Both the position numbers and the translations under genes were made by a program. Shown piece by piece: positions 8,903-59,743 of a DNA stretch of 59,744 bases; position 1 is the first letter of the stretch, and each line of letters opens with the position of its first letter. Source of the stretch: Candidatus Woesebacteria bacterium GW2011_GWA1_39_21 (GTDB lineage: Bacteria; Patescibacteriota; Microgenomatia; UBA8517); contig LBWP01000012.1 of NCBI GenBank assembly GCA_000993685.1, forward strand, positions 1-59,744. Direction: 5' to 3'. Under the pieces are notes generated by a model. That model saw nothing but the letters and a program-made list of their open reading frames with translations. It was not told where the DNA came from and searched no databases.

Positions 8903-9292
8903 ATGACTTATAACAACTTAAACGAAGATGAAAAAAAGATTATAGAAGACGGGGGAACAGAAGCGCCATTTGGCGGAGTGTACGACAATTTTTATGAGGA
9001 AGGGACATTTATTTGCCGACGTTGTAATTCTCCACTTTTCTCCTCGAAAAATAAATTTGATGCCGGCTGTGGTTGGCCGGCCTTTGATGAAAATCTTCCA
9101 AAAGCAGTAAAACGTATTCCCGATGCTGATGGAACTAGAACGGAGATACAGTGTGTCAATTGTGGTGCACATTTAGGTCATGTTTTTGAAGGAGAACACT
9201 TTACTAAAAGTGATATCAGGCACTGTGTAAACTCACTTTCAATCCGCTTTATACCAAAGGAAGATAAACGACCAATAATTAAACATGAATAA
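8903..9292 (+). CDS. msrB: Peptide-methionine (R)-S-oxide reductase
   Basis: GTEAPF, CRRC, GCGWPAF, RTEIQCVNCGAHLGHVF, RHCVNS. ATG 8903 preferred over upstream TTG. Confidence 0.95.
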   Translation: MTYNNLNEDEKKIIEDGGTEAPFGGVYDNFYEEGTFICRRCNSPLFSSKNKFDAGCGWPAFDENLPKAVKRIPDADGTRTEIQCVNCGAHLGHVFEGEHFTKSDIRHCVNSLSIRFIPKEDKRPIIKHE

Positions 9293-9839
9293 AAACGAGG
9301 AGACAGCAACCCTTGCCGGGGGTTGTTTTTGGTGTACTGAAGCTGTTTTTCAAAGACTTAAGGGAGTTCTGTCAGTAACTTCTGGATATTCGGGAGATGG
9401 AAAGATAAACCCGACATACGATGAAGTTTCGACTGGAAAAAGCGGATATATCGAGTCAGTACAAATTGAGTTTGATCCGGAAATAATTTCTTTTTCGCAA
9501 ATTCTTGATGTTTTTTGGAATACTCATGACCCGACAACCGTCGACAGGCAGGGAAACGACGTTGGTCCGCAATATAAATCGGCAATCTTTTATCGAAACC
9601 GAAAACAAAAAGACGCGGCTGAAAAATCAAAAAAAGAATTGGGAAAAGAAGGTGTCTATAAAAACCCCGCTGTAACAAAAATTTTACCTTTTGCAAAGTT
9701 TTATCCGGCGGAAAAATACCACGTCAGATTTTATGAGAATAATCCAAGCAGTATGTACTGCAATTTGGTAATTACTCCGAAAGTTGATAAACTTTATGGA
9801 AATTTCGGCGACAAAATTAAAAAAGAATATTTGAGGTAG
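9285..9839 (+). CDS. msrA: Peptide-methionine (S)-S-oxide reductase
   Basis: AGGCFWCTEA, HDPT, RQGNDVGPQY, FYPAE.YH. Confidence 0.95.
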   Translation: MNKNEETATLAGGCFWCTEAVFQRLKGVLSVTSGYSGDGKINPTYDEVSTGKSGYIESVQIEFDPEIISFSQILDVFWNTHDPTTVDRQGNDVGPQYKSAIFYRNRKQKDAAEKSKKELGKEGVYKNPAVTKILPFAKFYPAEKYHVRFYENNPSSMYCNLVITPKVDKLYGNFGDKIKKEYLR

Positions 9840-9842
9840 GAT

Positions 9843-10391
9843 TTAAGGGTAACAATTTGGCCAGAGATAAAATTTGCCAATCGATATTAAATATGCTGCA
9901 GTTTGTGTCGCCTCCTCGGCATTTAAACGTAAATCAGGATTGGGATCTTCCCCCATTGGAAGACGATTGTTTTTCCATGTCGATGTGTTGAATTGAAAAA
10001 GCCCGGCGTATGGTCCGTTGATTGCACTTGGATTAAAACCAGATTCGCAGACAGCAACATATCGCAGAACATTAACATCAATTCCGTACTGTCCGGAAAA
10101 TCTTTCCATAAATCCCTGAATTTCTTCTGAACTTACTTTGGGTTGGGGAATTGGTGTAGTTGTAGGAATTTTGGTTGGAATTGCCGTTGGGGATGGGGGT
10201 GGTGTGGTTGTCGGAGATTCAATTGGAGATGGTTTGGGAGCTTCTGTGGAAGTTGGTGAGGTACCTAAATTTTGTATCGATAAGGAGAGAACATTATCAT
10301 CTTTGTTTTGATGAAAAATTCTCTCAGCGGCCCTGTATCCTGCGTAAAAACAAAGAAGTGGAGTTATAATCAAAATTGCGATTTTCTTCAT
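9843..10391 (-). CDS. Secreted lysozyme-like (SLT/Rpf-type) transglycosylase with PT-rich linker
   Basis: VAVCESGFNPSA...YAGLFQF...TW...WPNC. Confidence 0.8.
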   Translation of the reverse strand: MKKIAILIITPLLCFYAGYRAAERIFHQNKDDNVLSLSIQNLGTSPTSTEAPKPSPIESPTTTPPPSPTAIPTKIPTTTPIPQPKVSSEEIQGFMERFSGQYGIDVNVLRYVAVCESGFNPSAINGPYAGLFQFNTSTWKNNRLPMGEDPNPDLRLNAEEATQTAAYLISIGKFYLWPNCYP

Positions 10392-10454
10392 AACAAGTTT
10401 CTGACGAAATTGATATTTAAACTTTGTATTTCTATGGTGACTTCACATTATACT

Positions 10455-10648
10455 ATGACATCCTCCCCGCCTTAAAAGGCGGGGTTTCCCCTAGGAGGAT
10501 GACATATAAGCAAAGCTTAAGATTTTATCAAAAGCAAAGCTTGACTCTGCATACGCATTTTCAGAGTTCAATCCTGCCCGCTAGCTTGCGCAAGCTAAGC
10601 AGGCTGGTCATCCCCACCCTGAAGGGTGGGGTTTTCTTGAACGCTGTT
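10455..10648 (-). mobile_element. Non-autonomous IS200/IS605-type element, copy 2
   Basis: Reverse complement of 4-196 with few differences. TTAT (minus strand, 10649-10652) abuts the left end. Confidence 0.8.
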
Positions 10649-11265: not shown

Positions 11266-12270
11266 CTATTCAGCTGGCAACTTCACGGTAAATATCGAGC
11301 CTTTGCCAACCGTACTTTCTACGCCAATTGAACCATTGTGAATGTTAACAATACTTTTTGCGATTGATAATCCCAACCCAAATCCAAGTGTATTAATTTT
11401 CGATCTGGAAGCGTCGGAACGATAAAATCTTTCAAACAAATAAGGTAGATCCTCCTTTGGAATTCCAATTCCATTGTCTGAAACTGCAATAATTATGTAC
11501 TTGCCTTTACAGTTGTATTTTATATTGACCATCTTTTTTTTCTGTGAATACTTAACCGCATTATCCAGCAAAATTGTAATCAGTTTTTCCAAACTCTCTT
11601 TATTTCCGCTCAAAAAAACATCGTCTTTGTTAAATTCAATTTGTATACCTTTACTTTTTCCGAGGGGTCTGATCTTATTAACTGAAGTTTCAACAATATC
11701 TTTTAGATTCACTCTCGCAAACGATTCTTTCAAATTATTTTGCTGGTAGCGGGTTAAACTTAGTAAATCGTTGGTCAAGCTTGTCATACTTTTTACATCG
11801 TTTAAACTATCCTTAAGTGTAAAAAGTGCAGATTTCAAATCAATTTTCTTATCCCTTAATGCAACTTCAATCGAAGTTTGGAGTGCCGTAAGTGGAGTTT
11901 TTAATTCATGGCTCGCGTCTGCAATAAAACGTTTTTGCTCCTCCATCGCATTTTCAATTGGATGGAGAGTCAACCCAGCCAAAAAATATCCTGCCAGGGA
12001 AGAAAAAATTAAAATAACAACGTTTGTATAAATTAAAATAATTAATACCCGATCCTCAACTTCCCTAAGATCCTCAATAAACATCATGTTCTGCGTCGTA
12101 GGAGGCAGATAGATCCGCTGAGGCGGGTTTAGGCGTCTTTCAATCAAGGATAATCTTTGTTGTATTTCCACAGAAACCATCCTGTATATAAAAAGGCTAA
12201 AAGCGATACTAATCGCCACAATGATCCCAGAGTAAACAACAGTTAATTTGATACGGGCCTTCTTAAACAT
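11266..12270 (-). CDS. Two-component sensor histidine kinase
   Basis: Two TMs, DASHELKTPL H-box, LLDNAVKY, DNGIGI, GFGLGLSI. Confidence 0.95.
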   Translation of the reverse strand: MFKKARIKLTVVYSGIIVAISIAFSLFIYRMVSVEIQQRLSLIERRLNPPQRIYLPPTTQNMMFIEDLREVEDRVLIILIYTNVVILIFSSLAGYFLAGLTLHPIENAMEEQKRFIADASHELKTPLTALQTSIEVALRDKKIDLKSALFTLKDSLNDVKSMTSLTNDLLSLTRYQQNNLKESFARVNLKDIVETSVNKIRPLGKSKGIQIEFNKDDVFLSGNKESLEKLITILLDNAVKYSQKKKMVNIKYNCKGKYIIIAVSDNGIGIPKEDLPYLFERFYRSDASRSKINTLGFGLGLSIAKSIVNIHNGSIGVESTVGKGSIFTVKLPAE

Positions 12271-12277
12271 GCGCGAA

Positions 12278-12961
12278 TTAATTCACCGCCAATTTATAAC
12301 CAAAACCTCTGACTGTTTGGATTAACCGTGGTTGGTCTTTAAACGGTTCGTCAATTTTCTTTCTTAGGTAACCGATGTAGACCTCTACCGTATTAGGTAA
12401 AATATCGGCTTCATATTCCCAAACACTTTCCATTAACGTATCTTTGCTTATAATTTTACCCGAATTTCTCATTAAATATTCCAAGAGGGTGAATTCTTTC
12501 CTAGACAATTTAATTTGTTTGTTTCCGCGCGTTACTTCAAAAGTTGTTTTATCAAGCGTTAAACCACCAACCTTAAGTACAGAATCTTTCGCGACTTCCC
12601 ACGGACGCCTCCCTAAGGCGGTAACTCTTGCAAGAAGTTCCTCAAAAGAAAATGGTTTCGGCAGGTAATCGTCCGCACCGATATTTAACCCCTTAACCCT
12701 GTCTTCAACACTACTTCTTGCCGTCAACATCAAAATTGGTGAGGGAACATCATCGTCCTGTCTAAGTTTTTTACAAATTGTCATTCCATCAATTTTTGGC
12801 AGCATCAAGTCAAGGATAATTAAGTCATAGTTTTCACCTGACGCAAGATCGTAACCCACCTCACCGTCGTAGGCAACATCAACAACATGACTCTCCTGTT
12901 CAAGGCCTCTTTTTAGTGAATTGGCAATTTTTTCCTCGTCTTCAACAATTAATATTTTCAT
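12278..12961 (-). CDS. OmpR/PhoB-family response regulator
   Basis: ILIVEDE, LDLMLP, GADDYLPKPF, winged helix ending TVRGFGY. Confidence 0.95.
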   Translation of the reverse strand: MKILIVEDEEKIANSLKRGLEQESHVVDVAYDGEVGYDLASGENYDLIILDLMLPKIDGMTICKKLRQDDDVPSPILMLTARSSVEDRVKGLNIGADDYLPKPFSFEELLARVTALGRRPWEVAKDSVLKVGGLTLDKTTFEVTRGNKQIKLSRKEFTLLEYLMRNSGKIISKDTLMESVWEYEADILPNTVEVYIGYLRKKIDEPFKDQPRLIQTVRGFGYKLAVN

Positions 12962-44925: not shown

Positions 44926-45543
44926 ATGAGTAACGTTATGTACAAATTACCCAATTTGGAATATACCTACGACGCGCTCGAACCTTATATTGATAAGGAA
45001 ACGATGGTGATTCATCATGACAAACATCATCAAGGCTACCTTAATAATTTAAACGACATTTTGAAGGAAAACCCTAAATTGCAAACAGTTGATCCCGAAA
45101 ACATATTTTCAAATCTTTCCAAAGTCCCGGAAGATGTCAAACAAAAGTTTATCAATAACGCTGGAGGGTTTGTAAACCACAATCTTTTTTGGAAAACATT
45201 TTCCCCCAAAACAACTACGCCCGACGGAAGTTTTAAAAACCTTATTGATGCAACATTTGGGGCGATTGACAACCTCAAACAAAAAATCTCTGATGCTGCG
45301 CTTTCACAGTTCGGAAGTGGCTGGGGTTGGCTTGTTGTTGACTCGGGAAAATTGGAGGTTATAAAAACGGCGAATCAGGACTCGCCACTTCTGCAAAATA
45401 AAACGCCGCTTTTCGGAATCGACGTTTGGGAACATGCATATTATCTGAAATACCAAAACCGCAGAGCTGATTATATTTCCGCAATTTGGAATGTTGTAAA
45501 TTGGGAGTATCTTTCCTCATTATTTGAAAAAAGTGTAAAATAA
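44926..45543 (+). CDS. sodA: Fe/Mn superoxide dismutase (Mn-type signature)
   Basis: HHDKHH, NNAGG.VNH, FGSGWGWL, NQD, DVWEHAYYLKYQN. Confidence 0.95.
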   Translation: MSNVMYKLPNLEYTYDALEPYIDKETMVIHHDKHHQGYLNNLNDILKENPKLQTVDPENIFSNLSKVPEDVKQKFINNAGGFVNHNLFWKTFSPKTTTPDGSFKNLIDATFGAIDNLKQKISDAALSQFGSGWGWLVVDSGKLEVIKTANQDSPLLQNKTPLFGIDVWEHAYYLKYQNRRADYISAIWNVVNWEYLSSLFEKSVK

Positions 45544-48166: not shown

Positions 48167-49810
48167 ATGTCTAGTTCTGCCCAAAGTTCTCCGGTTGCAT
48201 ACCTTTGTAACGAATTTGGAATCGATAGCGACCTACCAACATACTCCGGAGGACTTGGTGTTTTAGCTGCAGATCTTATCAGCGAAGCGGCTGATCAAGA
48301 TTTTCCAATGGTCGGAGTCGGAATTTTGTACAAAGGAAAAGAATTCGTCCAGCACGTAACAAGTGACGGAACAGAAGAACAAAGAGATTCGCAGTTCGAC
48401 CATGATACATCATTCTTACGACAAACTACAATTAAAGGAAAACCTCTGATAATTAAACTTGCTTTCGACTCAGAGGAAGTTTTAATCAAATCCTACCATA
48501 TCAGACTCGGCGAACACGTTGTTTTATATTTCCTTTCAACCGACGTTGACGGAAATCCACCCGAGTGGGTTTCCGATATGGACGCCTTATACAGAGGAGA
48601 CAATAATTCGCAAATTCGACAGCAAATCATTCTCGGCATCGGTGGGGTACGCCTTCTTGAAGCTCTTGGAGTTAGCCCGTCAATTTATCATATTAACGAG
48701 GGCAGACCCGGTTTTATCATATGGGAAATCACTAAAAATATAATGCAAAAAGAGGAGCTAACTTTTGAAGATGCTTGGAATAAAGCCAAACATAAAATCG
48801 TTTACACCAATCATACGCTAGTAAGGGCAGGCAATCTCGAATACCCTGTCGAATGTGTCAGAAATTGGGCTAAACATTTTTCTGACGACCTCGGCGTCGA
48901 CGTTGACCGCTTGATCAAAGATGGTTTGATTAATCCACAAACCTTCAGCATCACACTTTTTGCACTCAACGTCTCATCAAAACGAAACGCCGTAAGTAAA
49001 GTTCATTTGGAAAACTCCAGAAACGCATGGTCGCAATATGATTGGGAATATGTCACAAACGGCATTTATCTTCCCAGATGGCAAGATAGTGACTACCGAA
49101 ATACCAACCTCAGTGACAGGGAAATTTGGGACCTTCATATGTCGAAAAAAATTGAACTTTCAAAAACAGTTTTACAAAGAACGGGTGTTGCTTATGATCC
49201 AAATAAATTAGTAATTACTTGGTCCAGAAGACTGGCGGACTACAAACAACCAAGGGTGATCTTTTCTGACATCAAACGACTTTACGACATTGTCCAAAAG
49301 CCCGGTAGGCAGGTACAAATTCTATTCTCTGGAAATTCACACTCGGCAGACCCTAATGCAAAAAACATCATCGAAGAAATAATCAAAATCATGTCTACCG
49401 TTCTTTCAGGGTCAGCAATTTTCATTCCCAACTATAACATCTCACTCGCTAATCATCTCACGTCGGGGTCTGATGTTTGGCTCAACACCCCCAAGGGTAA
49501 CCTTGAAGCAAGCGGAACTTCTGGAATGAAGGCAATATCAAACGGAGTACTAAATTGTACAGTACTCGACGGTTGGACATACGAAGTTGATTGGAAAGAC
49601 ATCGGCTGGGTACTTGATAAAGACAATATAGCAGAGGATTTCTACACCAAACTGGAAAATGAAATCGCGCCTCTGTATTACGAGAGAAATCAAAATGGAA
49701 TCCCTGAAAAATGGATCCAAAAGATGAGAAAATCAATACAAATTTCTAACAGCTTCTCATCGGGACGAGTTTTACAGGAATACAAAAATAAAATATACGG
49801 ATTAACTTAA
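48167..49810 (+). CDS. glgP: Alpha-glucan phosphorylase (short form)
   Basis: PTYSGGLGVLA.D, HINEG, YTNHT, RR..YK (PLP Lys), DVWLNTP..EASGTSGMKA. Confidence 0.9.
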   Translation: MSSSAQSSPVAYLCNEFGIDSDLPTYSGGLGVLAADLISEAADQDFPMVGVGILYKGKEFVQHVTSDGTEEQRDSQFDHDTSFLRQTTIKGKPLIIKLAFDSEEVLIKSYHIRLGEHVVLYFLSTDVDGNPPEWVSDMDALYRGDNNSQIRQQIILGIGGVRLLEALGVSPSIYHINEGRPGFIIWEITKNIMQKEELTFEDAWNKAKHKIVYTNHTLVRAGNLEYPVECVRNWAKHFSDDLGVDVDRLIKDGLINPQTFSITLFALNVSSKRNAVSKVHLENSRNAWSQYDWEYVTNGIYLPRWQDSDYRNTNLSDREIWDLHMSKKIELSKTVLQRTGVAYDPNKLVITWSRRLADYKQPRVIFSDIKRLYDIVQKPGRQVQILFSGNSHSADPNAKNIIEEIIKIMSTVLSGSAIFIPNYNISLANHLTSGSDVWLNTPKGNLEASGTSGMKAISNGVLNCTVLDGWTYEVDWKDIGWVLDKDNIAEDFYTKLENEIAPLYYERNQNGIPEKWIQKMRKSIQISNSFSSGRVLQEYKNKIYGLT

Positions 49811-50212
49811 GTGCTGTTTAACCTTCTTTACAACCTCTTCAGGGGTCTGCATTGCTTTGATCAAATAATCTAAAGCCCCTAAATTCATCACTCGGTCTTT
49901 TTCTTCCTGTTCAGCAAGATTGGTTAAAGCGATGACTTTTATCGTTTTACCTTTTGCATCGCTTCGCAGCTGTGTTAGAAGCTCAACACCAGAAAGGCGT
50001 GGAAGCATCAGATCTAAAAGAATAATATCTACTTTACTTGATAACGCTAAATGGAGACCGTCTTCCCCATTGACAGCAGTTAAAACATTAAACCCCTCAA
50101 ATTTAAACTTCTCCGAATACATCTTACTAAGTACCGGATCGTCCTCTATTAGTAAAATTGTCGGAATTTTTCCCAAATCAACCTGATCTTGTTGGACATT
50201 TTGTTGTGGCAT
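49802..50212 (-). CDS. Single-domain response regulator (receiver only)
   Basis: LLIEDD, LLDLMLP, ALTN, LIK. Confidence 0.9.
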   Translation of the reverse strand: MPQQNVQQDQVDLGKIPTILLIEDDPVLSKMYSEKFKFEGFNVLTAVNGEDGLHLALSSKVDIILLDLMLPRLSGVELLTQLRSDAKGKTIKVIALTNLAEQEEKDRVMNLGALDYLIKAMQTPEEVVKKVKQHLS

Positions 50213-50302: not shown

Positions 50303-50905
50303 ATGAGGAAGTTTTTCGGAGTTTTCATCTTGTTTTTACTAATTATCTTTTCAGCAAAAACCGCCTCAGGTGCTGAAGGAACCTTCGAATTACGAAGCAC
50401 CGACAGCAATGGCTATAAATGCTTTGCAGCATCGCTTCAGCAACAAAATCTAAATTATAAGGTTTTGGTCTCATGTAGAAACATTATCTTTCCAGTTGAC
50501 GATACGATTTACACCTACGTGTTGTGGGCAAATCCTCAAGACGGAGGCTCCGCCATAAAACTTGGTTCAATTGGACTTGGAAGAGCTGAGTTTATCCTCA
50601 AACCGGCATTTACAAGCCTCTTTATAACCGCTGAACAAAATCCAAGTGTCAAAACACCGGCGGGAAACGTCGTAATGAAAGGCAGCATCAAACCAATCAC
50701 CTTCCTTGAAAAGCAAATAACCAGCGCAAATCAGGAGACAACAGATCAGGAGAGCGCTTCCACTGTCGAAACGCCATCGCCAACACCGGCAGGAACCTCG
50801 GTTCGGGATAGACTTTTAACGGGGTTGAAAAGAGCTGGTCTGGCATCGGGCCTTGCACTAGTTGCAATTTTAGGACTCGTTTTCGTTCTTACAAGACCAA
50901 GGTAA
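50303..50905 (+). CDS. Secreted protein with C-terminal TM anchor
   Basis: Signal peptide, beta-domain (Y.LW, LFITAE; RskA-C-like), S/T linker, TM plus RPR tail. Confidence 0.6.
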   Translation: MRKFFGVFILFLLIIFSAKTASGAEGTFELRSTDSNGYKCFAASLQQQNLNYKVLVSCRNIIFPVDDTIYTYVLWANPQDGGSAIKLGSIGLGRAEFILKPAFTSLFITAEQNPSVKTPAGNVVMKGSIKPITFLEKQITSANQETTDQESASTVETPSPTPAGTSVRDRLLTGLKRAGLASGLALVAILGLVFVLTRPR

Positions 50906-50912
50906 TCTATTC

Positions 50913-51335
50913 TTACGGAAGGTACTTCTTAATCACCTCAACTACTTGACCTGGAGTATAGTTTGACTTAACAAGATAATCCTTCACACCATAACTTCTA
51001 ATTTTTTCCTCGTCGTCTGAACCACTCAAATTAGTTAAAGCGATCACCGGAACATCTTTTCCCTTTTCGTCCTGCCGAAGCCTCACAAGCAGATCGATTC
51101 CAGACAATTTAGGTATTAAAATATCAAGAAGGATAAGGTCAACTTTTTGACTGACAGCATAATTCAACCCCTGAAGTCCGTCTTCTGCAATGAGAACATT
51201 ATAACCCTCAATTTCAAGCTTCTCCCTATAGATCCCGACTAAAAAGGGATCATCTTCTATCAGAAGAATTACTTTTTTACCAGGTTCTGACACCAGAGGA
51301 TTTGTCTCTGACGCAGCTTGAATATCATCCGCCAT
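50913..51335 (-). CDS. Single-domain response regulator (receiver only)
   Basis: LLIEDD, LLDILIP, ALTN, LVK. Confidence 0.9.
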   Translation of the reverse strand: MADDIQAASETNPLVSEPGKKVILLIEDDPFLVGIYREKLEIEGYNVLIAEDGLQGLNYAVSQKVDLILLDILIPKLSGIDLLVRLRQDEKGKDVPVIALTNLSGSDDEEKIRSYGVKDYLVKSNYTPGQVVEVIKKYLP

Positions 51336-51436
51336 GTCTGAAATTTATTATAGCAAGCGTAAAATAAAATGCCATATTCGTTTTACGCGCAGGTATATAA
51401 TCTCTTACATATTTTACTAATTTAAGTAAGAGGAGT

Positions 51437-53032
51437 TTATACCTTTTTTACAACCGGTAGTTCAAACCAAAAATTACTGCCTTTATCAGGCTCGGAGTTC
51501 AAACCTTGCGTTCCACCAAACTTTTCAATCAAAAGCTTTGTAATGTAAAGCCCCAGTCCCGTACCAAAAGTTTTTCCCGATGTCGATTCGGCCCTATAAA
51601 ATTTCTGGAATAATCTACTTTGTTCCTCTTTTGATATTCCGGGTCCTGTATCGACAACTTCCACCTTCACAAAACCAGGTATTGGATTACTCATTACAAT
51701 GTTAACTTTTCCTTTTTCGGTAAATTTAATGGCATTGCTTACAAAATTACTGATCACTTCCCTAATCCTGTCTGGATCAACTTTAACATTATCTTCCAAG
51801 CCGTTTGGAACCACCAATTTAAAGTCTAACTTTTTTCTCTCGGCTTCAACTCGAAATGAATAATATGTTTCCTGAATTGCGCGGATTAAGCTTGTTTCTT
51901 CCATTTGATAGACAATCCTGCCTTCTTCAATTCTTGAAACGTTAAGCATGTTGTTTACTAAACGTACCAGCCTATCCGTAACCGCCATGGCATCAGCTAA
52001 AAATTGCCGCGCCTTTTCGGGTATGTCTCCGGTATCTCCTTCGATAATCATCGAAACATAACCTTTGATGGCAGTTAATGGCGAACGCAACTCATGCGCA
52101 GCCATACTGACAAACTCATCCTTTTGTTTGTCCAAGTCTTCTAACCTCTTGTTCAAAAGTTGCAGCTGTTCACGTTGTCTAACTTCACGTATCACACTTC
52201 GAATTAACAATATACCAACTACCAACAGTGCAATAAAAACACCACTTCTAAAGAAGATCTCACCAAACGATGAAGACAATACAACTTCTGCAAACGATAA
52301 AATAATCAAAAGTACAGTAACTACTTCTGTTCCGATAATTTTAACGTTTAATAATTCGTGTCTTGAGATTGCATAAAAGGTAAAAAATACAAAAGGAAGC
52401 ATAAAAATACCACTTAGGGGTACAAAGCTGGAATTGTCAAAAACTGTAGTAAACAAAAAATTAAACACCAAGATAAACCCAAACATCATCAAAACCCCCA
52501 ATAATAGAAATACAAATTGCAATCGGGCATTACCTTTAGAACTTATCAATCGCTTTATTAAAATAATTAGACCAGCAATCACAGACGAGACCGCTACTAT
52601 GGCAAAAAGACCCATCCCGGGAGCAGGTATTGGTTGAGGAGTGACTCCCTCCTTTATAATCACTTCTGAGTACATTAATGGAGTCAGTGTAATCACTGAA
52701 ACTACAAACAATACCGGTACGTAAATGAACTTAACCAATTTAGAAAATTTATATTTCTCTTGTGGGAAAATATATGTTAGTAAAAAGAACAGCCCTGCTT
52801 GGTATACCGCAAAAAACATCACAAGTCTTACAGAAAGAGCGCCAAATACAGGGTCGAAAATTTTGTAACTTATATAATTAGCTATTCCCCATAGCGCACT
52901 AACAATAGTAAACAGAAGAAACAATCGGTTGGTTACACTCTTGCGGTTACTAAAATAAATAATGAAACCCAATATAGATATTGCTGCAACAGCAATCCCT
53001 AAAGCTAATAGGTCAAGATTTAAGACAGGCAT
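51437..53032 (-). CDS. Histidine kinase with HisKA_7TM-like intramembrane sensor
   Basis: About nine TM helices (NRLF, FP, YAI.RH.L), AAHELRSPL, N..SNAIKFT, DTGPGI, GTGLGL. Confidence 0.9.
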   Translation of the reverse strand: MPVLNLDLLALGIAVAAISILGFIIYFSNRKSVTNRLFLLFTIVSALWGIANYISYKIFDPVFGALSVRLVMFFAVYQAGLFFLLTYIFPQEKYKFSKLVKFIYVPVLFVVSVITLTPLMYSEVIIKEGVTPQPIPAPGMGLFAIVAVSSVIAGLIILIKRLISSKGNARLQFVFLLLGVLMMFGFILVFNFLFTTVFDNSSFVPLSGIFMLPFVFFTFYAISRHELLNVKIIGTEVVTVLLIILSFAEVVLSSSFGEIFFRSGVFIALLVVGILLIRSVIREVRQREQLQLLNKRLEDLDKQKDEFVSMAAHELRSPLTAIKGYVSMIIEGDTGDIPEKARQFLADAMAVTDRLVRLVNNMLNVSRIEEGRIVYQMEETSLIRAIQETYYSFRVEAERKKLDFKLVVPNGLEDNVKVDPDRIREVISNFVSNAIKFTEKGKVNIVMSNPIPGFVKVEVVDTGPGISKEEQSRLFQKFYRAESTSGKTFGTGLGLYITKLLIEKFGGTQGLNSEPDKGSNFWFELPVVKKV

Positions 53033-53070
53033 TCTATATTATTTATAACACTTCCGAGATACATCCGCTA

Positions 53071-54603
53071 TTACTTCTCGATCGAGGGTTCACTTTTAAT
53101 CCATTTCTGCTTTCCACCAGATTTAAAAAATTCAGGATATTCATATGGCCACAACAACACCACAGGCTCCTGTCTCTCTCTCAAAGCACGATAATTCGAT
53201 GTGTATTCAGAATTTTCTTGAAGTAAAGATTTGACTACTTCAATTTTTATTTTTTTAGCCAGACTGTCAGTTTTAGTGATACCTTTTTTTAATTCTACAT
53301 TAATTTCTAGAAACTGATTTTGATTCTTATTATACTTGATCATTAACGTAAATTTTGACGTTATATACTCTTCAAAATGGCTTTGTTGTAAAGCGTGTCT
53401 TATAGTATCTGGGAAAATATTCGCGCCGTAGAGTTTGACGACAAAATCTTTCCTCTCGTAAAGATAGACAAACGGCAATTTCCATACTTGTATATTCATC
53501 TCAGTTAATCTCTTATCAAGATAAATACCCTCTTCGTTAAATTTACGAGTCAATTCAACATATCCAATAATGCCCCCATAGTCTTTAAGGTTATATCTTA
53601 CAAAAGGTATACCACTCCAACCGGTACAAAATAACACATTGTTATTTTCTTCGAAATAGAATAATTCTGGAAAATATTGTGTTAGAGTTGGTAGTCTGTT
53701 AGTCTCCGGGAAAATCCTGGGTGTAATTTTTGGATGCTCATTTAGAAGTACTCTAACTAAAATAGTTAATGGCGTTTCATGGGCCATTGTTCCCATGTCT
53801 GCAGTACCATAATGATTTAGTGATCGCTTAAAATAATCTTTTATCTTTGCTCTTTCGTAAATATAATTCCTAAACTCTTCAGTGAAACCTTCAGCTGAAA
53901 AAATAAATCCCAGATTATATTTTTTCCAGTCAACCCCTAAACTTGCCCCCTCATCTATCACATCTTTTACTAACGGAGGGTAACCCCCGATGATTACCTG
54001 ATCAAATCTGTTCCCTAATGATATTACAGCTTTTAAGATTTCCTCTTTAAATATTCCGGGCGTATAAATTGTAAGTGGGTATTTTCCCCTTTCTGCAACA
54101 ATCCTTATTGCCTCGTAAGTAAAAAGTCCACCAATCCACGCACCCATAGCAAAGCAATCCAAATATAAAGTCGTCTTTTTATGAATATCGAAATTATTCC
54201 TTAGATATAGCTCTGCCAATAATGCATATTGACCATCTTGTTCTTTTTCTCTCGGAAAATAAAAAGGTTCTCCAGTAGAACCTGAGTTAGTAGAAATCGT
54301 CCAACGTCTTTCGACAAAGTTTCCATCCCAACACAGTTCTTGGATTGAATACTTCCGTAAATAATTGTCTTTATCAAGCGGAGGGATTTTTTTGAAGTCT
54401 TCAATTTTTTTAATTGTGTCCGGACTAATATTATTTTTTTTCAAAAAGTCCTTGTATGCCGGAACTCTTTGCGACATCAATTTGAAGAGTTTCAAAGCAC
54501 GATTTTCCCCTCTTCGTACCCAGTATTCTTCAGGTTTCGTTTTCAGCTTACTTTCAAGACTTAAAACATTTTTGAATCCGTAGGGTATTTTTTGGATTTG
54601 CAT
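53071..54603 (-). CDS. PaaK-like (phenylacetate-CoA ligase family) adenylate-forming enzyme
   Basis: VPAY, STNSGSTGEP P-loop, FSAE, HYGTAD, RYNLKD, ERKD, G.NIFP. Confidence 0.85.
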   Translation of the reverse strand: MQIQKIPYGFKNVLSLESKLKTKPEEYWVRRGENRALKLFKLMSQRVPAYKDFLKKNNISPDTIKKIEDFKKIPPLDKDNYLRKYSIQELCWDGNFVERRWTISTNSGSTGEPFYFPREKEQDGQYALLAELYLRNNFDIHKKTTLYLDCFAMGAWIGGLFTYEAIRIVAERGKYPLTIYTPGIFKEEILKAVISLGNRFDQVIIGGYPPLVKDVIDEGASLGVDWKKYNLGFIFSAEGFTEEFRNYIYERAKIKDYFKRSLNHYGTADMGTMAHETPLTILVRVLLNEHPKITPRIFPETNRLPTLTQYFPELFYFEENNNVLFCTGWSGIPFVRYNLKDYGGIIGYVELTRKFNEEGIYLDKRLTEMNIQVWKLPFVYLYERKDFVVKLYGANIFPDTIRHALQQSHFEEYITSKFTLMIKYNKNQNQFLEINVELKKGITKTDSLAKKIKIEVVKSLLQENSEYTSNYRALRERQEPVVLLWPYEYPEFFKSGGKQKWIKSEPSIEK

Positions 54604-54604
54604 C

Positions 54605-55651
54605 TTATTTCAATCTCATTATTCTTTCGCCTGCAAGCTCATTTGATATCGCCAAAGTGGACAATTTTCTCCTTCTGCTGAGTTCTAAAATTTTTTTCAG
54701 CATCAATTTTGTTCCTGCAACCTTCTTTCTAACATATTGTGTATTCAACCCATGGTTTTCATACTCTGCATAAACACTTATCAAACCTCCGGAATTAACA
54801 ACATAATCTGGTGCATATAAGATGGACCTCTTGTACAAAACATCTGCAACACCGTCACTTTCTAATTGATTATTAGCACCACCCGCTATAACAGAACAAT
54901 TTAACAGCTTAATCGTTTTGAAATTTAAGCAATTGCTCAATGCACAAGGACAAAAAGCGTCAACTTTCTGATTAAAAATCTTACCCGAATCAACGACTTT
55001 CACATTTGGATATTTCATCATAATCCTTTTTAGAGTTAATTTATCGACATCGGATACATAAATGTTATGCGAATGGTTATATATTAACCTCAAAAGTTCG
55101 CCTCCAATTTTTCCAACACCTTGAATCGCAAAGCTTTTTCCTTCCAGACTTTCTTTCCCATAAACTTCTTTTAAACACGCTTGGATCGAGTAAAACAAAC
55201 CCAAACCAGTATACTTTACTGGGTCGACATTCACTCCAACAAAGTATCTACTAAAGCGTCGCATCATAATTACATCGTCTCTACTAATTCCAACGTCTGC
55301 ACCTGTTATAAAATGTCCACCTAATAGATTCACTTTTTTTGAGTATGCTTTCAAGAATTCTCTTCTGTTTTTTATTTTTCCTTCTGCTACTATCACCGCT
55401 TTTGCTCCACCACACTTTAAACCCGCCAATGCCGCTTTTCGCGACATTGTTTTTGAAAGTCTCAAAGAATCAACCAATGCCTCGTTATAAGACCTGTAAT
55501 TCCAAATCCTCGTAGCTCCAAATGCTGGAATATCATTATTTCCCCGATGTATAGAGATGAATCCATTTAAATCCGTTTCGCTATCGTGGAAAAAGGTTAC
55601 CAGTCTGTGGTCGTCAAAATCCTCCAGTTGTTTTACCAAATCCAGATCCAT
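54605..55651 (-). CDS. Leu/Phe/Val-type amino acid dehydrogenase
   Basis: GATR, LS..M..K, GGAK, GADVG, QGVGKIG, GGANNQL, APDYVVNSGG. Confidence 0.9.
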   Translation of the reverse strand: MDLDLVKQLEDFDDHRLVTFFHDSETDLNGFISIHRGNNDIPAFGATRIWNYRSYNEALVDSLRLSKTMSRKAALAGLKCGGAKAVIVAEGKIKNRREFLKAYSKKVNLLGGHFITGADVGISRDDVIMMRRFSRYFVGVNVDPVKYTGLGLFYSIQACLKEVYGKESLEGKSFAIQGVGKIGGELLRLIYNHSHNIYVSDVDKLTLKRIMMKYPNVKVVDSGKIFNQKVDAFCPCALSNCLNFKTIKLLNCSVIAGGANNQLESDGVADVLYKRSILYAPDYVVNSGGLISVYAEYENHGLNTQYVRKKVAGTKLMLKKILELSRRRKLSTLAISNELAGERIMRLK

Positions 55652-55653
55652 AA

Positions 55654-56721
55654 TTAATCTAACCTCGATATCGGATAAAGATATTCTTTAATAAACCTTT
55701 CCCGACTTTCTCCCCGCACAATCCTTTTTATTGCAACCGTTACTGCAATACCCCCCAAAAGAGCAGCGCTTCCCAATTGCGGCCACGAAACTAGTTTTTT
55801 TGCTATCACTTTGTTGGCGGAAAGCAACATTCTAGAATCAACTTTATCAGGACCTCCAACTATCTGGTTTATAACAATATCTGCAAAGTCTTTTCTCGGA
55901 TCATATTGTCTCAATCTCTTTCTCCAATAATCGACGTCTTTCTCAAAAAATTTTTTATACCCTAAATCGTACCGTTCAATGTGCAAAACTGCCCAATCAC
56001 CATTGTCAGTCACCATTAAGACAGGGGTTTTATACTTTATTGCCAACTTCCTAATCTCAATTTTTAATAACATGTTATCAATTTCTTCGACAATACAATC
56101 AATTTTTTTTGATTTTAGAAGATTTTCAAGCTGGGGACTGGAAATGCCCTTGGTTAAGGCGGACACTTTTGCATAAGGATTATCTTCGTAAATTCTTCTT
56201 GCAGCAATAACACATTTATTTAAACCAACCTGATAAACACCAGCCCAAATTCTATTTAGGTTCGTTGTATCCAATTCGTCAAAATCTGCAATTGTAATAT
56301 TTTTAGAAATTCCAGACTGTGTTAAAACAAAAGCAATGTTACTGCCAACACTCATTCCAAACACCGCAACTTTATAATCTCGAAGCCGCTTCTGTTCTTC
56401 GGCAGTAATAAGATCCTGATTGCGATTTGTCTTAAGTCTAAAGTAATCTGCTTCTTTAACACACTTCACTAGTGAATAATTCCAGGGATAATAAACGTAT
56501 AAAAAATCATCTTTTTTCTTGTTCCTGTATTTATTAAATTCAGGGGATTTGCAAACTTCCGTTTTATCTTGACCGATGAATTGAAGGTTATCGATAAAAA
56601 AAAGTTCCTTGATTTGCCTTTCAAAAGCATCGTTGACATATATGTCTTGATGCTTATTAATAATTTTTTTTACAGTTGAAGGATCCTCAAATACAATTGG
56701 TTTAATATCAATTTTCGTCAT
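55654..56721 (-). CDS. ThiF/E1-like adenylyltransferase, Rv1355c-like (no nitroreductase domain)
   Basis: VYYPW, TNRNQDLITAEEQ, FGMSVGS, ADFDELDTTNLNR, EEID, SWPQL. Confidence 0.85.
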   Translation of the reverse strand: MTKIDIKPIVFEDPSTVKKIINKHQDIYVNDAFERQIKELFFIDNLQFIGQDKTEVCKSPEFNKYRNKKKDDFLYVYYPWNYSLVKCVKEADYFRLKTNRNQDLITAEEQKRLRDYKVAVFGMSVGSNIAFVLTQSGISKNITIADFDELDTTNLNRIWAGVYQVGLNKCVIAARRIYEDNPYAKVSALTKGISSPQLENLLKSKKIDCIVEEIDNMLLKIEIRKLAIKYKTPVLMVTDNGDWAVLHIERYDLGYKKFFEKDVDYWRKRLRQYDPRKDFADIVINQIVGGPDKVDSRMLLSANKVIAKKLVSWPQLGSAALLGGIAVTVAIKRIVRGESRERFIKEYLYPISRLD

Positions 56722-56749
56722 AATTTATCTCCTACAATTTTTCCGGTAA

Positions 56750-56837
56750 CAAAAACCGCCTTGGTAGGCGGTTAAATAATAAATGACTGTTAGTCATTAA
56801 CTAAACTAAAAAGAATCTCCTGCAAATAGAATTTCAT
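56750..56837 (-). promoter_or_regulatory. Short leader ORF plus hairpin and terminator directly upstream of the ThiF operon
   Basis: ORF 56837-56790 MKFYLQEILFSLVND*; hairpin AATGACT-AAC-AGTCATT; terminator AACCGCCT-ACCA-AGGCGGTT-TTT about 30 nt before the ThiF ATG. Confidence 0.5.
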
Positions 56838-56893: not shown

Positions 56894-57389
56894 CTACGGG
56901 GTATAGCGGAAGGATTGAGCTATTAGGTCAAGATCAGAATATAAATCAACATCTTTTGTCGATAAAGAATACACAATTCCTCTAACATAGATATAATAAA
57001 ATTTATCCTTCTCTATCATTCCAGTAATTGCAGGGTAAGAAGCAACAATCAAATCTTTTTTGTTTGTTAATGTGAATTTATTTTTCACTTCTAAGTCATT
57101 CAGATAATCTGTTAAATCACTGTAATTAGTACCGTTAATATTAATATATATTACCTGATGACGAGGAAATAATAACACTTCCCATTTTTTCTATGACATC
57201 ATAATTATCTGGTACTAGTATAGTAAAATCCATAGAACTTGAAGATATGAAAGTTTTCATATCATTATTTACAGGTGTCAGGGTAGGAATTATTTTCAAT
57301 GCAATGTGCGTGTTCGATCTCTTTAAAATAAGACCTAGCAAGATAATTAGTACAATCAAAACCGACGCAAGAAAGATTACTTTTTTCAT
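56894..57389 (-). pseudogene. Membrane-anchored PsbP-like protein, frameshifted (ORFs 57141-57389 and 56894-57178)
   Basis: Adding one AT unit to the AT run at ~57143-57151 fuses ..SSSSGNIY with ININGTNY..; FTI.VP..Y and IAQSFRY motifs. Confidence 0.7.
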
Positions 57390-58258: not shown

Positions 58259-59743
58259 TTATTTCACCTCAACAAAATCGGCCCCTTCTAAATAGATGTT
58301 TTTATTACTAAAATCTTTCAAGATACCAATTTGATTTTCTCCATCAATGATGCTTATATCTGTTTTATTAATTCTAAAGAAACAAACAAGGTCACCATAA
58401 CCATCCTTATTCACATCCTGATGGTTATCAATACATTTATCAAACGATTTTTCGTCGCCTGTTTTACCAAATGTAAGAGTATCTTTAATTATATCATTGG
58501 GCGCGTCGAAGATTTTCGAAGATAAAATCGCAATCTCAATTAATCCGTTGCTTTTTGAAACGATCTTGTTATGATCAGTATGGCGTTTCACATTAATATC
58601 AATCTTTTGTGTCAGTATATTTCCTCCTGGAGTTGGTCTATATCGGAAAGTGTACATGTTGTTTTCATTTGATTTATTTGAACCCTCATATAATTCAAAT
58701 AAAGTTGATGCGTCGACATCTGTACCATATACTGCAAAACTATATTCTTCCCCAACAGGTAGCACAATTTCAACCTTATAAATTTCATCAGGTGGTGTTG
58801 TAATGAAAGCAGAATTTATACCTGTTCCGTTTGGAGGAAGCGGATCATCTAATCCTGGATTAGAATACGCATCTTCAAAAAAATAAGTAGAATTGGGAAT
58901 TTCTTTCAGTGTGTTTCCCGTAGCTTTATCAAAACCTGTTCTTCTTCCACTTGAATCAGTAACTAATATCTGTGAAGGCAACTTTGCAGTTACCTCAAAA
59001 CTACTAAAATCACTGGAGGTCTTATGGAAACGACGCATGGCTAAAGCATTGTTTTGATAAGCTGGATCATTAAGAGCTAATCTTGGGTATGCTGGGTCGT
59101 TGATTAAAAAAGAATTGTCATCGATACCCTTCGCTACTACCCAGTGTTGTGTCCCTGGAACCTTAAGAGATACTGGCCGATTGTTATATATCTCGTCGGA
59201 GACTTGATTATAATCATAGTAATTATCATAGCCTTGAAAAATTATTTTTTGAGTACCATATTTACTATAGGAATCAGCCGAGTAATTACCAACTGATGCC
59301 CACCATAAATTTCCGAAGCGATACCCAAGGCTTACACAGCCTTCAGTGTTACATTTTGTATTTTTCTTAAAATAATTATTAACTGTAGAGGGGTTCGTTG
59401 GATTTCCGTCCAGATCTTTGTCTATACCAAAATACTTTAATATCATCGAAACAGAACTTAACGCGCATCCGCAATCACCAATTGTTTGTCCACACCACAA
59501 GCTTTGACTGTTTCCACTGTCATATTCATGACCGCTCCAATTTAAATCAGTTTGCTTAAACATTGGAACATTTAGGATTATCGGGGTGGGAGTTGGAGTT
59601 GTAGAAATAGTTGGAGTAGGGTTTATTGTAGGAGTCAATGTGGCGGTTGGAATTGGAGTAGGAGTTGGAGTTGGTGGAGGTGTATAAGAATAGCAATTAC
59701 AATTTGTCCATGTAGATAGTTCTCCCCCGCAAACTACTCCCGT
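58259..59743 (-). CDS. Surface protein with PT linker and C39-like cysteine peptidase domain (5' partial, runs off the window)
   Basis: LNVP.FKQTD..W, CGCALSS..M, QHWVVA.G, INDP. The frame is open to the window end. Confidence 0.8.
   Translation of the reverse strand, partial: TGVVCGGELSTWTNCNCYSYTPPPTPTPTPIPTATLTPTINPTPTISTTPTPTPIILNVPMFKQTDLNWSGHEYDSGNSQSLWCGQTIGDCGCALSSVSMILKYFGIDKDLDGNPTNPSTVNNYFKKNTKCNTEGCVSLGYRFGNLWWASVGNYSADSYSKYGTQKIIFQGYDNYYDYNQVSDEIYNNRPVSLKVPGTQHWVVAKGIDDNSFLINDPAYPRLALNDPAYQNNALAMRRFHKTSSDFSSFEVTAKLPSQILVTDSSGRRTGFDKATGNTLKEIPNSTYFFEDAYSNPGLDDPLPPNGTGINSAFITTPPDEIYKVEIVLPVGEEYSFAVYGTDVDASTLFELYEGSNKSNENNMYTFRYRPTPGGNILTQKIDINVKRHTDHNKIVSKSNGLIEIAILSSKIFDAPNDIIKDTLTFGKTGDEKSFDKCIDNHQDVNKDGYGDLVCFFRINKTDISIIDGENQIGILKDFSNKNIYLEGADFVEVK

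What the first reader, a model, noticed from the sequence alone, without database searches (positions are those of the whole stretch)
50913..56837. Candidate signal synthase-sensor system: ThiF + amino acid dehydrogenase + PaaK-like ligase + 7TM kinase + receiver
Seen: co-oriented genes with gaps of 2, 1 and 38 bp. They encode two different adenylating enzymes, a Leu/Phe/Val-type dehydrogenase and a kinase whose only input is an intramembrane multi-TM domain. Established: Rv1355c-type ThiF genes neighbour signalling genes, PaaK/ANL enzymes activate carboxylic acids, and synthase-next-to-membrane-kinase layouts occur in autoinducer systems such as Legionella lqs. Inference: the three enzymes make or modify an amino-acid-derived hydrophobic small molecule sensed by the cotranscribed kinase, i.e. 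an undescribed quorum/host-sensing circuit in a metabolically minimal bacterium. No thiS/moaD or paa catabolic genes are nearby to explain it otherwise.
Basis: partly seen in the sequence, partly recalled or inferred. Interest (0 to 1): 0.85.

Follow-up and report, generated by a model that had tools for sequence, protein, structure and literature searches.

The report
Oxazolone-type synthase operon ending in kinase
An ultrasmall groundwater bacterium carries an operon in which enzymes related to those that make N-acyl-amino-acid oxazolone lipids are followed directly by a membrane-embedded sensor kinase, and the same pairing recurs across its whole phylum, which makes it a strong candidate for a chemical signalling system that has not been described.

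Summary
Five co-oriented minus-strand genes (ThiF-like, Leu/Phe/Trp-type dehydrogenase, PaaK-fold ligase, 7TM histidine kinase, receiver) have gaps of 2, 1, 38 and 101 bp.

The ligase is in 6 of 41 relatives, always in the same block. In 50 Patescibacteria loci with 6 kb or more on both flanks, ThiF is adjacent in 50 and a co-oriented kinase in 49. The kinase is always the last gene, at a median gap of 9 bp, in 28 gene orders.

The ThiF is closest to Rv1355c/TrzS, the published oxazolone synthetase. Most relatives add its flavin oxidase partner; this genome has none. Sister loci replace the ligase with a FeeM/LuxI-like N-acyl-amino-acid synthase next to the same kinase family.

Best reading: the enzymes make an N-acyl-amino-acid or oxazolone-like metabolite and the kinase is coupled to it. 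That the kinase senses the product is inference only.

My literature searches found no description of this. It is a new variant of known kinds.

The parts
55654..56721 (-). ThiF-like adenylating enzyme with a roughly 100-residue N-terminal extension. It corresponds to the N-terminal (cyclase) half of the Rv1355c/TrzS type.
   Evidence: Pfam ThiF 84.3 bits. The best NCBIfam hit is the Rv1355c family at 217.6 bits, covering protein residues 16-339 and model positions 26-325 of 722 (cut-off 476, a full-length model); the next family scores 70 bits. The NLNR and (E)IDNM motifs align with E. coli ThiF 1zfn. Invariant residues include R100, G122, D148, N154, N156, R157 and D215 in 61 relatives.
54605..55651 (-). 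NAD(P)-dependent amino-acid dehydrogenase of the Leu/Phe/Trp group. It is an accessory step of the system.
   Evidence: Pfam ELFV_dehydrog_N and ELFV_dehydrog. NCBIfam ScyB Trp dehydrogenase 275 bits, below the cut-off of 600. In the PDB: Trp dehydrogenase 5b37 219 bits, Leu dehydrogenases about 211 bits. An ortholog is present only in the 6 of 41 relatives that have the ligase.
53071..54603 (-). Divergent PaaK-fold (ANL superfamily) adenylate-forming ligase. It is the marker gene of this system.
   Evidence: Only weak sequence hits. AF2 pLDDT 92.2. Foldseek hits: PaaK1 2y27 at E 1.3e-24, then BT_0428, AjiA1, ClxA and HCL. Invariant S107, G108, G111, P113, E238, G266, D341 and K498 in 72 sequences.
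51437..53032 (-). Sensor histidine kinase. It has a HisKA_7TM membrane domain (nine predicted helices) followed by HisKA and HATPase_c.
   Evidence: It is the last gene of the enzyme operon in 66 loci, at a median gap of 9 bp.
50913..51335 (-). Receiver-only response regulator (RR1).
   Evidence: Pfam Response_reg 76.8 bits, 140 aa, no output domain. A promoter-like site with an extended -10 lies at 51375-51347; this is a consensus match only.
50303..50905 (+). 200-aa protein with a signal peptide and a C-terminal membrane anchor, lying between the two receivers. It is conserved in this family only, and whether it belongs to the system is uncertain.
   Evidence: No Pfam or NCBIfam hit. Hydrophobic segments at 4-22 and 178-196. 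Present beside the kinase in G001, G003, G013, G014, G016, G002 and G005. Not found in the 79 of the 80 wider loci that come from other genomes.
49802..50212 (-). Second receiver-only response regulator (RR2).
   Evidence: Pfam Response_reg 78.8 bits, 136 aa. Syntenic in relatives.
56754..56773 (-). Terminator-like hairpin just upstream of the ThiF start. It is a likely upstream boundary of the unit.
   Evidence: 8-pair stem with 5 GC pairs followed by a T run. This is a pattern match only.

Best explanation
The window holds a reduced member of a gene cluster that is widespread in Patescibacteria. Its core is a PaaK-fold ligase, an Rv1355c/TrzS-type ThiF enzyme and, always last in the operon, a 7TM histidine kinase.

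Proposed mechanism (all of these steps are inferred; none was tested here):
1. The ligase adenylates a carboxylic acid and joins it to a hydrophobic or aromatic amino acid, giving an N-acyl amino acid. It would take the place of the FeeM/OxzA/TyzA acyltransferase of known oxazolone pathways and might not need acyl-CoA.
2. The dehydrogenase (an aminotransferase in other lineages) interconverts the amino acid and its 2-oxo acid, to supply or recycle a precursor.
3. The ThiF enzyme uses ATP to cyclise the N-acyl amino acid to an oxazolone.
4. Where a flavin oxidase is present it desaturates the ring. This genome has no such oxidase, so it would stop at the saturated oxazolone or at the N-acyl amino acid.
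5. The hydrophobic product partitions into the membrane. There the polytopic kinase domain detects it and phosphorylates the receiver-only regulators, which act through protein contacts rather than DNA binding.

Shown here: gene content, homology, and the conserved operon coupling. Inferred: substrate, product, and sensing by the kinase.
For: 1. Relatives. The ligase is in 6 of 41 relatives. The dehydrogenase ortholog is in the same 6. All 5 other ligase-positive relatives have ThiF, dehydrogenase, ligase, kinase and receiver in one block, in three different gene orders.
2. Wider loci. 137 loci were confirmed and the best 80 kept, with titles from at least nine candidate phyla. In the 50 loci with 6 kb or more on both sides, ThiF is adjacent in 50 and a co-oriented kinase in 49.
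3. Kinase position. In 66 loci the kinase is the last gene, at a median gap of 9 bp. In 58 of the 66 the gene before it is a co-oriented cluster enzyme. There are 28 arrangements.
4. Even sample of the phylum. The ligase is in 43 of 401 genomes. By hand from the coordinates, 40 of those 43 have the 7TM kinase on the same contig and strand within 7.5 kb.
5. ThiF profile hits. 49 of 61 places lie within 5 kb of such a kinase (by hand).
6. Chemistry. Rv1355c is TrzS, a ThiF cyclase fused to a flavin oxidase that makes N-acyl tryptazolones. The relatives' oxidase passes the Acg-family cut-off (207 against 199 bits), and five loci carry the ThiF-oxidase fusion (381.8 bits to the Rv1355c model).
7. 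Sister loci. 18 ThiF+kinase loci lack the ligase. 8 of them have a FeeM/autoinducer-synthase-like gene instead. G002, a member of the window's own genus, does too.
8. Export. An MFS efflux gene sits inside the cluster in G003 and G013.
9. Ligase precedent. Solved PaaK-fold relatives include ClxA and AjiA1. ClxA is described as an amide ligase (abstract).
10. Dehydrogenase and aminotransferase are mutually exclusive: 29 and 15 of 50, never both.
11. The authors of the oxazolone papers themselves raise signalling as a possible role.
Against: - No experiment, no RNA data and no ligand test.
- The window and its whole genome (92% complete) have no flavin oxidase and no FeeM-like gene. The canonical product cannot be made here.
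- The ThiF scores below the curated Rv1355c cut-off (217.6 against 476), and the fused forms do too (381.8).
- The ligase has no demonstrated amide-forming activity. It could make a CoA thioester.
- The kinase family is far commoner than the ligase: 179 against 43 of 401 genomes. In G005, G012 and G018 it sits beside UbiA and polyprenyl synthase genes instead, so it is not tied to one chemistry.
- In the window's family the whole block, including a glucan phosphorylase, is syntenic. Local linkage there is partly inherited.
- The loci are related to one another, so the counts overstate independence.
- 3 of 43 ligase-positive genomes show no adjacent kinase: G378 has none found, G086 is at a contig end, and in G125 the kinase is on another contig.
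- FeeM Pfam scores pass the cut-off in only 2 of the 5 proteins tested.
Confidence: 0.5

Rival explanations
1. The enzymes and the kinase form one module, but the kinase senses something else (membrane or envelope state, host contact, redox). It only controls or coordinates production of the metabolite, which acts as an antimicrobial, a stress metabolite or a membrane component.
For: Regulators commonly sit beside biosynthetic genes. Oxazolone production in proteobacteria is induced by antibiotics, and the authors suggest a stress role. N-acyl tyrosine relatives are reported as antimicrobial. The same kinase family also neighbours prenyl-lipid genes.
Against: The partner regulators are receiver-only, with no DNA-binding domain (the RR cluster has a median length of 130 aa). 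Simple transcriptional control of the operon is therefore not evident. The kinase has no input domain other than the membrane helices. In a quick tree the kinase clades follow the type of synthase, although relatedness confounds this.
Confidence: 0.3
2. The ThiF and the ligase act on a protein or on the kinase itself (E1-like conjugation or acylation), or they build a bound cofactor for the 7TM domain, rather than a free signal.
For: The ThiF/E1 superfamily includes protein-conjugating enzymes (one search lists UBA5 and E1 among weak hits). A saturated oxazolone is an activated acyl donor (established chemistry, recalled). The kinase is invariably co-encoded.
Against: No ubiquitin-like, ThiS or MoaD gene, and no conserved small ORF, lies in the clusters. 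The closest family by a wide margin is the small-molecule cyclase TrzS. An MFS exporter is present in some clusters.
Confidence: 0.08
3. Amino-acid salvage or catabolism. The dehydrogenase or aminotransferase makes a 2-oxo acid, a true CoA ligase handles the derived acid, and the kinase reports nutrient supply.
For: The ligase has the PaaK fold. The dehydrogenase is of the Leu/Phe/Trp type.
Against: The ligase scores 34 bits against the PaaK equivalog cut-off of 646. The Pfam scans of the finding's own genes and neighbouring ORFs named no 2-oxo-acid decarboxylase or oxidoreductase and no paa genes; the rest of the window was not scanned. This reading does not explain the universal ThiF, the frequent flavin oxidase, or the sister loci with FeeM-like synthases.
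Confidence: 0.05
4. A ribosomal peptide (RiPP) pathway in which the ThiF enzyme modifies a precursor peptide, as MccB or PaaA do.
For: MccB and PaaA appear among weak PDB hits. The ThiF has an N-terminal extension.
Against: No small ORF is conserved across the clusters. The largest family covers 5 loci and lies antisense over uncalled ThiF regions. The N-terminal extension itself aligns to the TrzS-family model.
Confidence: 0.03

Closest known systems
Oxazolone biosynthesis: OxzA/OxzB (Pseudoalteromonas rubra), TyzA/B/C and TrzA/TrzS (= Rv1356c/Rv1355c) of mycolic-acid bacteria
   Same: A ThiF-like ATP-dependent enzyme of the same family, the best NCBIfam hit. In most relatives a nitroreductase-superfamily flavin oxidase lies adjacent or is fused to it. 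An enzyme that could make the N-acyl amino acid sits beside it. Sister loci carry the FeeM-like acyltransferase itself.
   Different: A PaaK-fold ligase replaces the GNAT-type acyltransferase. A dehydrogenase or aminotransferase, an alpha/beta hydrolase and sometimes an MFS exporter are added. A 7TM histidine kinase ends the operon; the word 'kinase' does not occur in the two oxazolone papers I searched for it. The window's version lacks the oxidase. All scores lie below the equivalog cut-off.
Autoinducer synthase plus polytopic receptor-kinase pairs (LuxM/LuxN, CqsA/CqsS, LqsA/LqsS, AgrBD/AgrC); these names are recalled, not from a call
   Same: The synthase genes are co-encoded with a histidine kinase whose only input is a multi-helix membrane domain, which suits a hydrophobic ligand.
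   Different: No sequence relationship of the sensor domain to those receptors was tested or seen. The chemistry is different. The output is through receiver-only proteins. No signalling has been shown.
PaaK phenylacetate-CoA ligase and the PaaK-fold condensing ligases NatL2/AjiA1/ClxA
   Same: Same fold (TM 0.81 by target to 2y27; AjiA1 and ClxA are among the hits). The ANL motifs are conserved.
   Different: About 80 residues longer, 16-18% identity, and far below the PaaK model cut-off. The substrate is unknown, and no paa or benzoxazole genes are nearby.

Membership tests
Oxazolone synthetase pathway (OxzAB / TyzACB / TrzAS) | A ThiF-like cyclase of the TrzS/OxzB/TyzB group with an intact adenylation site | tested here: inconclusive
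   The best NCBIfam family is Rv1355c at 217.6 bits, against 70 for the next family. This is below the cut-off of 476, which was set for a 722-position fused model of which this protein covers half. The ATP-site motifs are kept.
Oxazolone synthetase pathway (OxzAB / TyzACB / TrzAS) | A nitroreductase-superfamily flavin-dependent oxidase fused or adjacent to the ThiF | tested here: not met
   None in the window or in the whole genome at 92% completeness. It is met in relatives: 35 of 50 loci, 5 of them fused.
Oxazolone synthetase pathway (OxzAB / TyzACB / TrzAS) | An adjacent FeeM/OxzA/TyzA-type N-acyl amino acid synthase | tested here: not met
   No FeeM match in the genome; a PaaK-fold ligase stands there instead. 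In sister loci the FeeM match is above the cut-off in L108 and L112, Autoind_synth is above the cut-off in L114, and FeeM is below the cut-off in L101 and G002.
Oxazolone synthetase pathway (OxzAB / TyzACB / TrzAS) | The product is an N-acyl oxazolone | not testable with these tools
   Needs expression and LC-MS.
PaaK phenylacetate-CoA ligase | Equivalog-level sequence match and a paa gene context | tested here: not met
   TIGR02155 scores 34.4 bits against a cut-off of 646. The fold is shared. The Pfam scans of the finding's genes and nearby ORFs named no paa genes. The genome was not searched for paa genes.
ELFV amino-acid dehydrogenases (Leu/Phe/Trp group) | Both ELFV domains above the Pfam cut-offs | tested here: met
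   45.9 and 74.8 bits. Substrate was not assigned: ScyB scores 275 against a cut-off of 600, and Trp and Leu dehydrogenases score alike.
HisKA_7TM sensor kinases (PF16927) | An N-terminal 7TM region followed by HisKA and HATPase_c | tested here: met
   41.3 bits against a cut-off of 28.6. The model shows nine helices.
Quorum-sensing synthase/receptor-kinase pair | The receptor binds the product of the co-encoded synthase and changes its kinase activity | not testable with these tools
   Only the conserved operon structure was shown.

The most novel reading that the evidence does not exclude
The 7TM kinase is the dedicated receptor for an oxazolone-class or N-acyl-amino-acid signal made by its own operon. 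That would make this the first signal and receptor pair of Patescibacteria, present in roughly a tenth of sampled genomes as the ligase form and in more as FeeM-type and methyltransferase-type forms. It would also be the first receptor for oxazolones, whose physiological role their discoverers call unresolved. In this reading the PaaK-fold ligase is a CoA-independent N-acyl-amino-acid synthase, suited to cells without fatty-acid or CoA metabolism.
Probability: 0.35. Interest if true: 0.9.

Novelty: new variant of a known kind. Interest (0 to 1): 0.8.

Why it matters
Oxazolones were found only recently. The groups that characterised them state that their physiological role is unknown and raise signalling as a possibility. 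A phylum-wide operon that ties oxazolone-type enzymes to a membrane sensor kinase offers a concrete, testable candidate receptor.

For Patescibacteria, ultrasmall and mostly host-dependent bacteria, I found no account of a cell-cell or host signalling system of this kind. In the 2024 perspective article I searched, the terms 'histidine kinase', 'two-component', 'quorum', 'signal' and 'sensing' did not occur.

The ligase may also be a new enzymatic route to N-acyl amino acids.

Tried and rejected
- RiPP reading. 314 small ORFs (18-75 aa) in and around the clusters gave no family wider than 5 loci, and that one lies antisense over ThiF regions.
- Expression. The look-up of sequencing runs listed 19 runs, all on record as DNA, from groundwater and soil metagenomes. 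No RNA holder was listed.
- Fold of the sensor domain. Foldseek against the PDB gave no match at E <= 0.001, only weak GPCR-like bundles (E about 0.01, TM 0.4-0.5). I draw nothing from this.
- Kinase tree. The careful search did not finish, so I report the quick tree. The ligase label needs 4 changes against 19.9 in shuffles, but related sequences share labels, so this is not independent evidence. L013 was dropped (no anchor gene recognised) and L015 was left out (split kinase).
- Range outside the phylum. The ESM Atlas listed ligase-like clusters whose few labelled members are mostly Actinomycetota or Cyanobacteriota. This is a lead only; I could not test it.
- Literature. Searches found no paper that joins oxazolones, or these enzymes, with Patescibacteria or a histidine kinase. 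Subscription journals are not covered, and supplements were not opened. The genome-neighbourhood supplements of the oxazolone papers might list kinases.
- Not used: complex prediction, the search for homologous proteins, the search of protein representatives.


Full report
**1. Observation**

- ThiF-like, 56721-55654
- ELFV dehydrogenase, 55651-54605
- ligase, 54603-53071
- kinase, 53032-51437
- receiver, 51335-50913

The gaps are 2, 1, 38 and 101 bp. Pfam confirms ThiF, both ELFV domains, HisKA_7TM + HisKA + HATPase_c, and a receiver with no output domain. The ligase is too divergent for Pfam: AMP-binding_C_2 scores 20.4 against a cut-off of 25. An AlphaFold model built on 72 relatives (pLDDT 92.2) matches PaaK1 2y27 at E 1.3e-24 with TM 0.81 by target, and the ANL motifs are invariant. 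The kinase input is a bundle of nine predicted helices with one short hairpin loop and no outside domain.

The window lies in a 1.04 Mb genome of 30 contigs, 92% complete. DNA runs place it in groundwater. Relatives' record titles place it in Patescibacteria.

**2. Close relatives**

- The ligase is in 6 of 41 related genomes, G000 included.
- A strong dehydrogenase match (E <= 3e-64) is in exactly the same 6. The other 10 matching genomes give only weak hits to ORFs of 420-460 aa.
- In all 5 other ligase-positive relatives, ThiF, dehydrogenase, ligase, kinase and receiver lie in one block. There are three gene orders, and two genomes have an MFS efflux gene inserted.
- The wider block (glucan phosphorylase, RR2, a 200-aa anchored protein, RR1, kinase) is also syntenic. 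Linkage within this family is therefore partly inheritance.
- The 7TM kinase is in 12 of 41 genomes. Where the ligase is missing, the kinase sits next to a short ThiF plus a FeeM-like gene (G002; its kinase is split in two ORFs), a distant ThiF-like gene (G011, G032), or UbiA plus polyprenyl synthetase (G005, G012, G018).

**3. The phylum**

A scan of species-representative genomes with a ligase profile confirmed 137 loci and kept the best 80. Their titles name Roizman-, Magasanik-, Doudna-, Woyke-, Kaiser-, Gottesman- and Nomurabacteria, Paceibacterota and Saccharibacteria. Several assemblies of about 1 Mb are titled 'uncultured Gammaproteobacteria', which I take to be mislabels.

Counts:

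| Feature near the ligase | All 80 loci | 50 loci with >= 6 kb on both sides |
|---|---|---|
| ThiF | 77 | 50 |
| 7TM domain | 71 | 48 |
| Kinase core | 68 | 49 |
| 7TM domain or kinase core | not counted | 49 |
| Dehydrogenase | 42 | 29 |
| Class I/II aminotransferase | 25 | 15 |
| Dehydrogenase and aminotransferase together | not counted | 0 |
| Neither of the two | not counted | 6 |
| Acg-family flavin oxidase | not totalled | 35 (5 fused to ThiF) |
| Alpha/beta hydrolase | 16 | 10 |
| Receiver | 44 | 33 |

- The one exception for the kinase, L053, has a 7TM match about 9.7 kb away.
- In 66 loci with a kinase ORF after the ligase, the kinase is the last gene. The median gap to the gene before it is 9 bp (quartiles 2 and 39.5). 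That gene is a co-oriented cluster enzyme in 58 of the 66. There are 28 arrangements.
- In an even sample of 401 genomes of the phylum, the ligase is in 43, the 7TM kinase in 179 and ThiF-profile hits in 59, at 61 places.
- By hand from the printed coordinates, 40 of the 43 ligase genomes have the kinase within 7.5 kb on the same contig and strand. The exceptions are G378, G086 and G125.
- By hand, 49 of the 61 ThiF places lie within 5 kb of such a kinase. Of the other 12: 1 lies at 8 kb, 1 at 12 kb, 3 cannot be judged, 2 are at contig ends, 3 are on other contigs, and 2 have none.
- For scale, G000 has 5 HisKA kinases and 7 receivers in all.

**4. What the enzymes are**

- The ThiF's best curated family is Rv1355c, at 217.6 bits over residues 16-339; the next family scores 70.
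- Rv1355c is now TrzS. [quoted passage not shown] Cyclisation comes first and desaturation second. TyzB/TyzC and OxzB do the same for tyrosine. For these papers I read abstracts, named sections and found passages.
- The separate oxidase in relatives passes the Acg-family cut-off (207.4 against 199). The fused forms score 381.8 on the Rv1355c model, against a cut-off of 476.
- The known pathways start with a FeeM/OxzA-type N-acyltransferase. Here a PaaK-fold ligase stands in that place.
- 18 ThiF+kinase loci without the ligase were fetched. They fall into four types:
  - 8 have a FeeM/autoinducer-synthase-like gene.
  - 6 have a SAM methyltransferase with a weak GNAT-like gene.
  - 2 have ThiF plus the oxidase.
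  - 2 have ThiF alone.
- Pfam support for FeeM is above the cut-off in 2 of the 5 proteins tested, and Autoind_synth is above its cut-off in 1.
- Solved PaaK-fold relatives include ClxA and AjiA1. ClxA is described as an amide ligase, and NatL2 as forming an ester (abstracts only).

**5. Mechanism**

I read the module as follows. The ligase makes an N-acyl amino acid. The ThiF enzyme cyclises it. The oxidase, where present, desaturates it. The dehydrogenase or aminotransferase supplies or recycles the amino acid and its 2-oxo acid. Some clusters add an exporter or a hydrolase. The kinase reports on the product to receiver-only proteins.

G000 has neither an oxidase nor a FeeM-like gene. The window's version is therefore reduced and cannot make the canonical unsaturated oxazolone. 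Sensing by the kinase is inference.

**6. Rivals**

The main rival is that the kinase senses another cue and only coordinates the pathway. Protein conjugation, catabolism and RiPP readings are weaker: there is no ubiquitin-like or small conserved ORF, the PaaK model score is very low, and ThiF is universal in these loci.

**7. Novelty**

The word 'kinase' does not occur in the two oxazolone papers I searched for it. In the ThiF review it occurs once, in another context, and 'Patescibacteria' does not occur there. 'Patescibacteria' is also absent from the de Rond preprint. My searches found no paper joining these themes. In a 2024 perspective on Patescibacteria, the terms 'histidine kinase', 'two-component', 'quorum', 'signal' and 'sensing' did not occur.

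I rate this a new variant of known kinds (an oxazolone gene cluster; a synthase and receptor-kinase pair), with high interest.

Noticed in passing
window 56894-57389 (-): Two overlapping minus-strand ORFs (82 aa with an N-terminal membrane anchor, then 94 aa) look like one gene split by a frameshift. They lie in the 31% GC stretch upstream of the ThiF gene. Relatives have a pilin-like gene (N_methyl motif) at this position.
   Followed up: partly
window 50303-50905 (+): A 200-aa protein with a signal peptide and a C-terminal anchor and no known family. It lies between two receiver-only regulators, is conserved beside the kinase in this family, and was not found in the wider loci from other genomes.
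   Followed up: partly
L015 (G002) 9051-10642: In a genome of the same genus the 7TM kinase is split into ORFs of 168 and 360 aa, and the ligase/dehydrogenase cassette is replaced by a divergent short ThiF plus a FeeM-like gene. This may be a decaying or swapped system.
   Followed up: partly
L012, L013, L014 (G012, G005, G018): The same kinase family sits directly after UbiA prenyltransferase and polyprenyl synthetase genes. This hints that the kinases are paired with different lipid-like products.
   Followed up: partly
L010 6041-6856; L011 11537-12706: A Tet-like MFS efflux gene lies inside the cluster in G003 and G013. In G003 the ORF is only 271 aa and may be truncated.
   Followed up: partly
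L018, L020, L040, L058 and other loci: Many TPA assemblies titled 'uncultured Gammaproteobacteria' have contigs and gene content typical of roughly 1 Mb Patescibacteria genomes. The titles are probably wrong.
   Followed up: no
window 11266-12961 (-); G000:C18:13173-15389: A second, ordinary two-component pair (a 334-aa kinase and an OmpR-type regulator) lies in the window. On another contig a kinase is followed by three receiver-only proteins.
   Followed up: no
window 44926-45543 (+) and 58259-59638 (-): An Fe/Mn superoxide dismutase and a C39-like peptidase flank the region. The dismutase suggests exposure to oxygen, although the oxygen-dependent oxidase of the pathway is missing here.
   Followed up: no
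L083, L084, L088, L089: In Gottesmanbacteria-type loci, type IV pilus genes (PilB-like and PilC-like by sequence appearance; I did not run them against Pfam) lie just upstream of the ligase. This may hint at the output of the receiver-only regulators.
   Followed up: no
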